The translations under genes were made by a program, and so were the position numbers. Under the pieces are notes generated by a model. That model saw nothing but the letters and a program-made list of their open reading frames with translations, searched no databases and was not told the origin of the DNA. A stretch of 64,000 bases of DNA from the human T2T-CHM13v2.0 reference genome, Homo sapiens: the NCBI RefSeq assembly GCF_009914755.1, contig NC_060926.1, one strand, 5' to 3'. The number at the start of each line of letters is the position of its first letter. The stretch's first letter is position 1. Positions 28,301 through 31,132 of the stretch are shown one piece after another.

Positions 28301-28512
28301 TGAAGACATTGAGTCATCCAGCCGTCCTTATGCAGGGTGATTTACCAGCATGTCCAACCTCACAGAGCGCTGAGACTACTGAGTGACCAGGAGACTCACA
28401 GGGAACCACTGAGCTCCAGCAAAATAGAGTGAAAGAAACACTGGCTGAGAGTCAGAAAGCCCACAACTCGGTCCTTGTTCTGGTTACCTAGTGTTGTGTA
28501 GAAAACCATCCC

Positions 28513-28832
<320 letters not shown>

Positions 28833-29285
28833 TCAGTGGCTTCACATAGCAACAAACATCTAGTTTGCTCATTAATCTGCATTTTGGGGAGAACTCTGAG
28901 CAGACGGCTGTTCTTGTTCCATGTATTTCCAACAAGGAAGTCTTGAATGGAGCTGGAGGATCCACTTCCTAGTTAGCTCCAAAATGCTGACTGTCGGCAG
29001 AGGCTGCTGACCAGGGACCCTAACTCCTTCCCACATGTGTCTCTGGGGCTGCTGAAGCTTCCTCGCAGTATGGCATTTGGGTTCCGAGAGTCCAGATTCC
29101 CAGAGCAGGAAGTGGAAGCCGCTGGTCCCGTAAGGCCTGAGGCCATAAACTGGCACAGTGTCACTTAGGCAGGCCAAGCAATTACAGAACCTGTCCAGAA
29201 TCGGGGTGGGGTGGGGCGAAGTGGTGCGGGAGGGATGTAGTTCCCACCACTAAATGGGAGAAATGTCAAGGCATTTTCGGTCACC

Positions 29286-29873
29286 TTGTTTGTTTTCCAG
29301 TCACCTTTCCCAGCCTCCTCGCCCCTCCCCCCAGTTATTATATTTTACTTTTCCCCTTCCCACCCCTGCCCTTTGCATCCAACAGGGGGCGGCAGCGGCG
29401 GTGAGGAAGACACGAGTCCCAGGGAGTCCTAGGAGCGCGCAGTGGGTGGGGCTGGACAGCGAGTTCCACTTCCATGCCGCCTGCGTGGGCCTCGCGCCTA
29501 CAGATGGCCAACCTGCTGTACCACAGCCAGCACCACATCAAGATTTGGTTCCAGAACCGGCGCATGAAGTACAAGTAGGATTATGGGCCAAGGAGATGGC
29601 CTCGTTGTGGGGGGCCCCTCTCCCTGGCAGAGCAAGCCGTCCACGCCGACTTCAGAAACGCCCTGCAGTCCATGACCCCCGCCCTCCTTCCGCAAAGCCC
29701 ACCAGAATGCCTACTCGCTGCCCTCCAACTACCAGCCACCTCTCCAAGGCTGCGGTGCCCCGCAGAAGCAGCCACCCCCAACCCTGGCGCCCAATTATAA
29801 GCCCCAGGTCCTCCAAGCCAACTGAGACGCCTACAGGACGCCCACCATGTAGGGCAGCCCTGTGTACCTGGGC
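29286..29873 (+). pseudogene. HOXB3 (pseudogene): HOXB3-derived pseudogene fragment: putative intron 3' end, Gly linker, homeodomain and part of the C-terminus (strand given is the coding sense)
   Basis: Across frameshifts it reads [25 protein letters not shown] (29434-29472), [24 protein letters not shown] (29504-29578), AKEMAS and DFRNALQSMTP. It then reads [58 protein letters not shown] (29694-29873). Recalled HOXB3 reads [38 protein letters not shown] and [59 protein letters not shown]. Stops at 29430, 29576, 29823 and 29850. Confidence 0.93.
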
Positions 29874-30497
29874 CAATTCGCTGTCATTTTTAATCCACCA
29901 TAATCCTTGCTCTGACCTGTGGGCCTCAGGCTTCTCACCTGTGAAATTAGAGTCAAATTGGATTATCTTTGAGGTCCCCACCAATCTTCAAAGGCTGTGA
30001 ATCACTGGTTCTGATGTATAATTTGCTGACTGACAAGTACAGTCTGTGAGTCCACATCCTTTGTAGGCTTGTACATGGTGACAGCTGATCTCAGCCAGCC
30101 AGACACACAGAGCTCCCGGGCAGCAACGACGCTACACACCCAGGCTCCTCTGCATTTCCCTCCAAACTCACTGCTGTTTTTCTTCACGAAGCCGAAGTCG
30201 TCTTCTAATTCCTGGAACCTGACAACACTGGCCCTGAGGGTTTCCTAACCTTCCACATCATTCTTGCCCTTTCTCATGGGCAATAACTCATAAGCAAAAC
30301 GTGTAACCAGTGGAGGAGATTTCAAAAAGAGATCAACACAGCTCGCAAGTGGAATGAAAGGGTTCAATGAGTGGGCTCTAGATCCAGACAATCTGGGTCC
30401 AAACACCTGCACCATCACATCCTAGCTGTGAAACCTGGTGTAGAGTGACTTCACCTTTTTAAATTTCATTTTTTCCATTTTTAAAATGGTAATAGAA

Positions 30498-31132
<635 letters not shown>

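What the first reader, a model, noticed from the sequence alone, without database searches (positions are those of the whole stretch)
29272..29893. Junctions suggest a retrocopy of an RNA antisense to HOXB3
Seen in sequence: the fragment has no poly(A) at its coding 3' end and stops abruptly in coding sequence at 29873. It is flanked by degenerate direct repeats cattttcggtca (29272-29283) and aattcgctgtca (29875-29886), identical at 8 of 12 positions. The left copy is followed by a T-rich tract ttgtttgtttt (29286-29296). The right copy continues as TTTTT|AA (29887-29893). Established: a minus-strand L1-mediated insertion reads [TSD..TTTT] poly(T) insert [TSD..TTTT]AA on the + strand. Inference: the template RNA ran antisense through the HOXB3 homeobox exon into the intron, where it was polyadenylated or primed on an A-rich stretch, and it was 5'-truncated at 29873. 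This would be a fossil of an ancestral germline or early-embryo HOXB antisense transcript. The TSD is degenerate, so this remains a hypothesis.
Basis: partly seen in the sequence, partly recalled or inferred. Interest (0 to 1): 0.85.

Follow-up and report, generated by a model that had tools for sequence, protein, structure and literature searches.

The report
Ancient retrocopy of HOXB3 antisense RNA
A decayed 600-base piece of the HOXB3 gene, intron boundary included, was most likely copied by the LINE-1 machinery from an RNA made on the opposite strand of HOXB3, so it is an ordinary kind of genomic fossil with an unusual template.

Summary
The 8-of-12 flank repeat is chance-level on its own: 78.5% of 1000 shuffles reach 8/12.

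A profile of 30 other copies of the surrounding old LTR rescues it. The left flank's LTR homology ends at 29287 and the right flank's starts at 29875, so 16-17 LTR positions are present twice. Each copy scores about 10 bits in a fixed register, matched by about 0.016% of the window's 16-mers.

The duplication ends exactly at TTTTT|AA. A T tract (29289-29296) follows the left copy, and the other end has no A tract. This geometry implies LINE-1 target-primed reverse transcription of an RNA antisense to HOXB3, 5'-truncated at 29873.

In today's HOXB3 the antisense strand carries AATAAA 12 nt before the point where homology stops. Only 2.3% of positions have this.

Caveat: HOXB3 homology stops at 29332, not at the T tract. 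The 35 nt between them have no source I could find.

Extension of HOXB3 homology through the left repeat is chance-level. No outgroup genomes or poly(A)-site data were available.

Verdict: interpretation supported. This is a new member of a known kind, of moderate interest.

The parts
29002..29271 (+). Left part of the host repeat, an old LTR-type interspersed repeat.
   Evidence: Weak matches to other genomic copies. nhmmer hit to the 30-copy family profile, E 2.4e-30. 130/169 identical to the family majority sequence.
29272..29288 (+). Left copy of the target-site duplication (CATTTTCGGTCACCTTG).
   Evidence: The left flank's profile homology is best ended at 29287. 10.5 bits over 16 columns; 0.016% of window 16-mers score as high.
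29289..29296 (-). T tract TTTGTTTT on the + strand, read as the remnant of a poly(A) tail on the - strand.
   Evidence: Only 0.43% of + strand 8-mers have 7 or more T. It directly follows the left duplication copy.
29297..29331 (.). 35 nt of unexplained sequence, pyrimidine-rich on + and G-rich on -, lying inside the duplication-bounded insert.
   Evidence: No significant source in 30 kb of the HOXB region, in adjacent sequence or genome-wide. No tandem repeat.
29332..29385 (+). Last 54 nt of the HOXB3 intron, with polypyrimidine tract and CAG acceptor (sense on +). Under the best explanation this is the 3' end of the antisense template.
   Evidence: Alignments to chr17. The collinear HOXB3 antisense strand has AATAAA ending 12 nt before the homology end.
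29386..29873 (+). HOXB3 homeobox-exon fragment (sense on +), decayed, with stops and frameshifts. It ends abruptly in coding sequence.
   Evidence: 455/534 aligned columns identical, K2P 0.166, 17 deletions and 4 insertions. Pfam Homeodomain E 3.5e-7 on 29405-29578.
29875..29891 (+). Right copy of the target-site duplication (AATTCGCTGTCATTTTT). Base 29874 (C) cannot be assigned.
   Evidence: The right flank's profile homology is best started at 29875. 10.0 bits; 0.017% of window 16-mers score as high.
29892..29902 (+). Remainder of the host LTR up to its 3' end. It begins with the AA of the TTTTT|AA cleavage motif.
   Evidence: 9 of 11 positions match the family majority. TTTTAA occurs at 0.09% of + strand positions.

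Best explanation
An RNA transcribed from the strand opposite HOXB3 ran through the homeobox exon into the last ~54 nt of the intron. It was probably cleaved and polyadenylated about 12 nt after an AAUAAA there. LINE-1 ORF2 protein nicked the + strand of an old LTR on what is now chr2 at TTTTT|AA. The freed T-rich 3' end primed reverse transcription on the poly(A) tail. The cDNA was 5'-truncated after about 540 nt of template. A second nick 16-17 bp upstream produced the target-site duplication.

Shown here: the HOXB3 origin with the intron boundary retained, the duplication, its boundary motif, the T tract, the abrupt end, and the AATAAA in the source.

Inferred: that LINE-1 did it, that the template was polyadenylated, and that it was made in the germ line or early embryo. 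The age, roughly 60-100 million years, is also inferred, from K2P 0.14-0.17 and substitution rates recalled from memory.

The 35 nt at 29297-29331 are not explained. I favour later slippage or a template switch for them.
For: 1. Source and extent. chr17 HOXB3 exon plus intron, 29332-29873, is contiguous across the splice acceptor, so the template was not a spliced HOXB3 mRNA.

2. Duplication. Thirty family copies of the host LTR were fetched; one search scored 40 of 108 candidates. The profile places the left-flank end at 29287 and the right-flank start at 29875, an overlap of 16-17 columns. The two copies score 10.5 and 10.0 bits, with empirical tails of 0.00016 and 0.00017. Both copies share two departures from the family majority, C at column 13 and T at column 16. 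They are 10/17 identical to each other.

3. Motif. The right copy ends TTTTT and is followed by AA. The left copy's LTR homology stops at the same place: beyond it only 4 of 12 positions match the family and 1 of 11 match the right copy, by my count's table.

4. Tail. TTTGTTTT follows the left copy, with a base rate of 0.43%. There are 2 A in the last 20 nt at the other end.

5. Poly(A) signal. The HOXB3 antisense strand reads AATAAA, then 12 nt, then the homology end. 2.3% of positions in 30 kb have AATAAA ending 8-30 nt upstream.

6. Order of events. The host LTR is 77% identical to its family majority, the insert is 85% identical to HOXB3, and an Alu in the same LTR has a perfect 11-bp duplication.

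7. Background from papers. Polyadenylated antisense units overlapping HOXB3 mRNA are conserved between human and mouse (PMC1831499, passages and Table 2 text). Mouse Hoxb3os and human HOXB-AS1 partially overlap HOXB3 (PMC10786614, passages).
Against: - The T tract is short (8 nt) and does not touch the HOXB3 homology. 35 nt of unknown origin lie between them, which a simple poly(A)-primed copy does not predict.
- No source for those 35 nt was found.
- An exact 8-mer, GTCACCTT, occurs at both 29280-29287 and 29300-29307. Only 0.9% of shuffles match this. It hints at a more complex junction history.
- Window 29271-29280 also resembles the HOXB3 intron just beyond the homology end. This is statistically weak: 14% of 5990 control windows score as well.
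- The AATAAA is degraded in the retrocopy itself, so it is seen only in the modern source.
- There is no empty orthologous site, no transcript annotation and no poly(A)-site data.
- The family profile rests on 30 diverged copies (about 70-75% identical to the query copy).
Confidence: 0.72

Rival explanations
1. DNA-level templated repair. A break in the LTR was repaired by copying HOXB3 DNA, through microhomology-mediated strand invasion or template switching, with no RNA intermediate. The apparent left duplication copy would then be HOXB3 intron sequence or microhomology.
For: Window 29271-29280 equals the HOXB3 intron stretch 6-19 nt beyond the homology end once a 4-nt gap is allowed (sequence; local alignment). 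The insert keeps intron sequence and lacks a clean long poly(A). The 35-nt filler could be repair-associated.
Against: The resemblance is at chance level. It scores 7.5, and 14% of 5990 control windows do as well. Unrelated family copies score up to 11 against the same HOXB3 50-mer. The bases TCACCTT at 29281-29287 match the LTR register and the right copy, not HOXB3. A 16-17-bp duplication ending at TTTTT|AA with an adjoining T tract is not expected from end joining or templated repair (established knowledge, not tested here).
Confidence: 0.08
2. LINE-1-mediated chimeric retrocopy. Reverse transcription began on the poly(A) tail of another RNA, whose last ~35 nt are 29297-29331 on the minus strand. 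It then switched to the 3' end of the HOXB3 antisense RNA. This is a variant of the best explanation that accounts for the 35 nt.
For: The 35 nt sit between the T tract and the HOXB3 homology, and they match nothing in 30 kb of the HOXB region. The HOXB3 homology ends at a predicted cleavage site. Template-switch chimeras are a known LINE-1 product (recalled, no call).
Against: No donor for the 35 nt was found: a genome-wide 65-nt query hit only itself, though that search skips common words. No A-rich spacer lies at the 29331/29332 junction. The 8-mer repeat points rather to local rearrangement.
Confidence: 0.1
3. A copy of sense-strand unspliced HOXB3 pre-mRNA, or of an intron-initiated sense RNA, captured at a staggered break. 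The T tract and the cleavage motif would be coincidental.
For: The fragment is sense on the + strand and retains the intron-exon boundary, as unspliced pre-mRNA would.
Against: Target-primed reverse transcription starts at the RNA 3' end. The sense 3' end of the insert is mid-exon, with no A tract (2 A in 20 nt). HOXB3 continues there with a G-rich run. The left edge of the duplication has no TT|AAAA-type site (register). All three orientation marks point the other way.
Confidence: 0.05

Closest known systems
LINE-1-mediated retrocopies (processed pseudogenes) of cellular RNAs
   Same: Dispersed location on another chromosome, a 16-17-bp target-site duplication, a TTTT|AA-type nick site at the duplication boundary, a tail remnant next to one duplication copy, and 5' truncation.
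   Different: The template was not the spliced HOXB3 mRNA. The insert keeps the intron-exon boundary, and its orientation marks imply the opposite-strand RNA. The tail remnant is only 8 nt and is separated from the copied sequence by 35 unexplained nt.
Retrocopies of non-coding RNAs used as records of how parental genes were transcribed (e.g. microRNA host-gene retrocopies; Pan and Lin 2020, PMC7692494, abstract and outline seen)
   Same: The same logic applies: hallmarks of LINE-1 insertion plus the position of the poly(A) tract are used to infer a 3' end of the parental transcript.
   Different: Here the parent is an antisense transcript of a HOX coding exon, there is a single old copy, and the tail does not abut the homology.
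Present-day HOXB3 antisense transcripts (human HOXB-AS1 / mouse Hoxb3os; antisense units of Mainguy et al. 2007)
   Same: Polyadenylated antisense RNAs overlapping HOXB3 mRNA exist and are conserved between human and mouse (PMC1831499; PMC10786614).
   Different: Whether any annotated isoform runs unspliced through the homeobox exon and ends at chr17:49,414,818 (T2T) could not be checked. The overlap listed in Table 2 of PMC1831499 is 78 nt, whereas the retrocopy needs at least 540 contiguous nt.
Templated sequence insertions at repaired double-strand breaks
   Same: A short piece of a distant locus, including intron sequence, inserted without a clean long poly(A).
   Different: Insertions of that kind, as I recall it, lack a long duplication and a LINE-1 nick motif. 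Here both are present.

Membership tests
LINE-1-mediated retrocopy | Target-site duplication of roughly 7-20 bp flanking the insert | tested here: met
   16-17 profile columns of the host LTR are present on both sides (29272-29288, 29875-29891). 10.5 and 10.0 bits, empirical tails of about 0.00016.
LINE-1-mediated retrocopy | Endonuclease nick motif TTTT|AA at the duplication boundary next to the tail | tested here: met
   The right copy ends TTTTT and is followed by AA at 29892-29893. TTTTAA occurs at 0.09% of positions. The family majority has a T-run followed by AA at the same columns.
LINE-1-mediated retrocopy | Poly(A) tail at the 3' end of the copied RNA, abutting one duplication copy | tested here: inconclusive
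   An 8-nt T tract abuts the left copy (base rate 0.43%), but 35 nt of unknown sequence separate it from the HOXB3 homology.
LINE-1-mediated retrocopy | Empty orthologous site with a single copy of the target in outgroup species | not testable with these tools
   Only the human genome is held. Other copies of the LTR family served as a stand-in.
Processed pseudogene of HOXB3 mRNA | Intronless copy of the spliced mRNA including its 3' end and poly(A) | tested here: not met
   The insert contains 54 nt of intron with the acceptor, lacks the rest of the exon and the 3' UTR, and has no A tract at its sense 3' end.
Copy of a polyadenylated HOXB3 antisense transcript | Poly(A) signal on the antisense strand 10-30 nt upstream of the end of the copied sequence | tested here: met
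   AATAAA ends 12 nt before the homology end at chr17:49,414,818 (T2T). 2.3% of positions in 30 kb qualify.
Copy of a polyadenylated HOXB3 antisense transcript | A documented antisense transcript with that 3' end, or crossing the homeobox exon unspliced | not testable with these tools
   The papers show that antisense units overlap HOXB3 but give no coordinates. The search for end-mapping of HOXB-AS1 found nothing useful.
DNA-level templated insertion (break repair) | No target duplication; junction microhomology or source homology continuing into the flank | tested here: not met
   The duplication is present. The resemblance of the left junction to the HOXB3 intron is at chance level, with 14% of controls scoring as well.
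MLT1 (MaLR) LTR as host element | Match to the named family's reference sequence | not tested
No repeat library is on hand. I showed only that the flanks belong to one old dispersed family: one search scored 40 of 108 candidates, and 30 copies were aligned.

The most novel reading that the evidence does not exclude
The fragment is a 60-100-million-year-old snapshot of the ancestral HOXB3 antisense lncRNA (the Hoxb3os / HOXB-AS1 lineage). It would show that this RNA was already made in germ-line or early-embryonic cells, ran unspliced across the homeobox exon, and used a poly(A) site in the HOXB3 intron that is still readable in the human sequence. The 35-nt G-rich piece before the tail could then record a lost terminal exon or an RT template switch.
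Probability: 0.3. Interest if true: 0.55.

Novelty: new member of a known kind. Interest (0 to 1): 0.4.

Why it matters
LINE-1 copies any polyadenylated RNA that it meets in the germ line, so old retrocopies are dated records of past transcripts. Very few HOX-derived copies are catalogued. In the survey of human homeobox loci that I consulted (PMC2211742, passages only), HOXB3 occurs once, in the gene table, and 2p12 not at all.

If the reading holds, this fragment is physical evidence that antisense transcription across the HOXB3 homeobox exon, ending at a poly(A) site in the intron, predates much of the placental radiation. That fits the reported human-mouse conservation of HOXB3 antisense RNAs.

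It does not reveal a new mechanism, and the locus shows no sign of present function.

Tried and rejected
- Genome searches with the right flank and with the last 171 nt of the left flank found only the locus itself. The family had to be reached through a less decayed copy.
- A longer duplication running to the LTR end was rejected. Beyond 29288 the left side matches the family at 4 of 12 positions and the right copy at 1 of 11, by my count's table.
- An inverted match of 29308-29331 to the HOXB3 intron (19/24, E 0.54) and a direct match to the exon 61 nt beyond the truncation point (15/18, E 3.9), both, were rejected as low-complexity chance. In 30 kb the best scores were 17 and 18, and 8% of 200 shuffles reach that.
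- Origin of the 35 nt by duplication of the adjacent polypyrimidine tract was not supported: 13.7% of 1000 shuffles score as well.
- Tandem Repeats Finder found nothing in 29240-29400.
- A genome-wide query of 29276-29340 hit only itself.
- A spliced antisense exon was considered. The modern antisense strand has no GT at the junction (sequence).
- HOXA3 and HOXD3 introns gave no help on the ancestral intron, because homology starts in the exon.
- The literature search for mapped ends of HOXB-AS1 gave nothing useful.
- Internal priming on the A-rich antisense stretch was rejected, because that stretch is retained inside the insert.

Full report
**What is there.** Window 29332-29873 is a decayed copy of part of HOXB3.
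- In the own-genome search the best non-self match is chr17:49414148-49414622 (77% identity, E 3e-96), with a second piece in the adjoining intron. Matches in the HOXA and HOXD clusters cover only the homeobox.
- The chr17 exon translates to a protein with Pfam Homeodomain (E 2e-22) and DUF4074 (E 4e-29). The window piece keeps half a homeodomain (E 3.5e-7).
No tool named it.
- A global alignment gives 455 of 534 aligned columns identical, K2P 0.166 (0.139 outside CpG), and 17 deletions and 4 insertions in the window copy. There are 26 CpG against 63 in the source.
- The copy is sense on the + strand. It crosses the splice acceptor without a break (54 nt of intron, then 488 nt of exon) and stops at 29873 in mid-exon, where HOXB3 continues with a G-rich run.
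- It is therefore not a copy of spliced HOXB3 mRNA.

Every string is at the stated place.
- The 8-of-12 repeat by itself is worthless. 8 is the best 12-mer identity between the two 41-nt junction windows, and 78.5% of 1000 shuffles reach it.

**Testing the duplication without an outgroup.** No other mammalian genome is held, so I used other copies of the host repeat as stand-ins for the empty site.
- The flanks are too decayed to find relatives directly. The right flank and the last 171 nt of the left flank hit only themselves.
- A longer left-flank query found four weak copies. One of these, better preserved, found many more: 108 candidates, 40 scored, 30 fetched.
- I aligned the 3' ends of those 30 and used the column frequencies as a profile.
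- In an ungapped register fixed by the unambiguous LTR sequence on either side, the left flank's cumulative log-odds peaks at 29287 and the right flank's starts at 29875.
- Sixteen profile columns, seventeen if 29288 was once T, are therefore present twice: CATTTTCGGTCACCTTG and AATTCGCTGTCATTTTT, 10 of 17 identical.
- The copies score 10.5 and 10.0 bits. Of 127,968 16-mers in the window, 0.016% and 0.017% do as well.
- Both copies share two departures from the family majority.
- Beyond the overlap the left side stops resembling the LTR: 4 of 12 positions match the family and 1 of 11 match the right copy, by my count's table. The right side continues to the LTR end.

**Orientation.**
- The right copy ends TTTTT and the LTR resumes with AA. 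TTTTAA occurs at 0.09% of + strand positions.
- The left copy is followed by TTTGTTTT. 8-mers with 7 or more T make up 0.43% of positions.
- The other end of the insert has 2 A in its last 20 nt.
- By the established model of LINE-1 target-primed reverse transcription, a nick at TTTT|AA on the + strand frees a T-rich 3' end that primes on poly(A). The + strand then reads duplication, poly(T), reverse complement of the RNA, duplication, AA.
- The + strand insert is HOXB3 sense, so the RNA was antisense to HOXB3 and 5'-truncated at 29873.
- An Alu in the same LTR (28513-28816, with a perfect 11-bp duplication) shows the mirror-image arrangement for a + oriented insertion.

**New evidence from the source gene.**
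- On the chr17 + strand, which is antisense to HOXB3, AATAAA ends 12 nt before the last homologous base, chr17:49,414,818 in T2T.
- In the 30 kb around it, 2.3% of positions have AATAAA ending 8-30 nt upstream, and 3.7% if ATTAAA is allowed.
- The A-rich antisense stretch that includes the signal is retained inside the insert. Priming on that stretch is thus excluded, and polyadenylation at a real site is the better reading.

**What does not fit.**
- HOXB3 homology begins at 29332, not at the T tract. The 35 nt between them (29297-29331) are pyrimidine-rich on the + strand.
- They have no significant match on either strand of chr17:49,395,001-49,425,000. The best scores were 17 and 18, and 8% of 200 shuffles do as well.
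- They are not a detectable duplicate of the neighbouring polypyrimidine tract (13.7% of shuffles).
- They form no tandem repeat and find nothing genome-wide. That search skips common words.
- The one oddity is an exact GTCACCTT at 29280-29287 and 29300-29307 (0.9% of shuffles), together with three '...CCAG' ends. This hints at local slippage.
- A template switch from another polyadenylated RNA, or lost ancestral intron sequence, are the alternatives.

- The HOXB3 intron just beyond the homology end resembles window 29271-29280 if a 4-nt gap is allowed.
- The local alignment of the left junction with those 50 nt scores 7.5. 14% of 5990 control windows from the HOXB region score as well. Unrelated family copies score up to 11 against the same 50-mer.
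- Homology therefore does not demonstrably run through the T tract and left repeat, and DNA-level templated repair gains no support. It is not excluded.

**Age and order of events.**
- The host LTR is 77% identical to its family majority (130/169).
- The insert is 85% identical to a conserved exon.
- The Alu has a perfect duplication.
- The inferred order is LTR, then the HOXB3 copy, then the Alu.
- With recalled neutral rates of about 1.5-2.2e-9 per site per year, K2P 0.14-0.17 suggests roughly 60-100 million years. This is an inference only.

**Literature.**
- Mainguy et al. 2007 (PMC1831499; passages and table text) report polyadenylated, spliced antisense units in the HOX clusters. [quoted passage not shown] - Mouse Hoxb3os is described as an antisense transcript partially overlapping Hoxb3, with HOXB-AS1 as its human counterpart (PMC10786614, passages).
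- A review table lists HOXB-AS1 and HOXB-AS2 (PMC8293171, passages).
- None of these gives coordinates.
- Retrocopies of non-coding RNAs have been used before to infer parental transcript ends (PMC7692494, abstract and outline).
- In the human homeobox catalogue (PMC2211742; 12 of 22 matching places shown) HOXB3 occurs once, in the gene table, and '2p12' never. I saw no HOXB3-derived pseudogene there, but I did not read the whole text or its tables.
- The RefSeq table supplied with the finding lists nothing at this place.

**Verdict.**
This is a LINE-1-type retrocopy of an RNA antisense to HOXB3 (confidence 0.72).
- It has one unexplained 35-nt segment and lacks the outgroup and transcript-end checks that would settle it.
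- It is a new member of a known kind and of moderate interest.

Noticed in passing
window 28502-28827: An Alu (28513-28816, + orientation, with an A-rich tail containing CCAAA repeats) sits in the same old LTR. It is flanked by a perfect 11-bp duplication, AAAACCATCCC, at 28502-28512 and 28817-28827. It is younger than the HOXB3 copy and mirrors its arrangement.
   Followed up: partly
window 29280-29334: An exact 8-mer, GTCACCTT, occurs twice 20 nt apart (29280-29287 and 29300-29307). Three pyrimidine-rich units each end in CCAG (at 29300, 29313 and 29334). This may be junction slippage. Only 0.9% of shuffles give such an 8-mer match.
   Followed up: partly
L002 (chr17:49412648-49416122), antisense strand near chr17:49,414,801-49,414,860: Besides the AATAAA 12 nt before the homology end, a second AATAAA lies about 30 nt further along the HOXB3 antisense strand. 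The human HOXB3 exon carries a much longer GGC/glycine run than the retrocopy (deletions of 13 and 41 columns in the window copy), so the run may have expanded in HOXB3 or shrunk in the copy.
   Followed up: no
window 30500-31100: Two Alu elements lie head to tail just downstream of the LTR.
   Followed up: no
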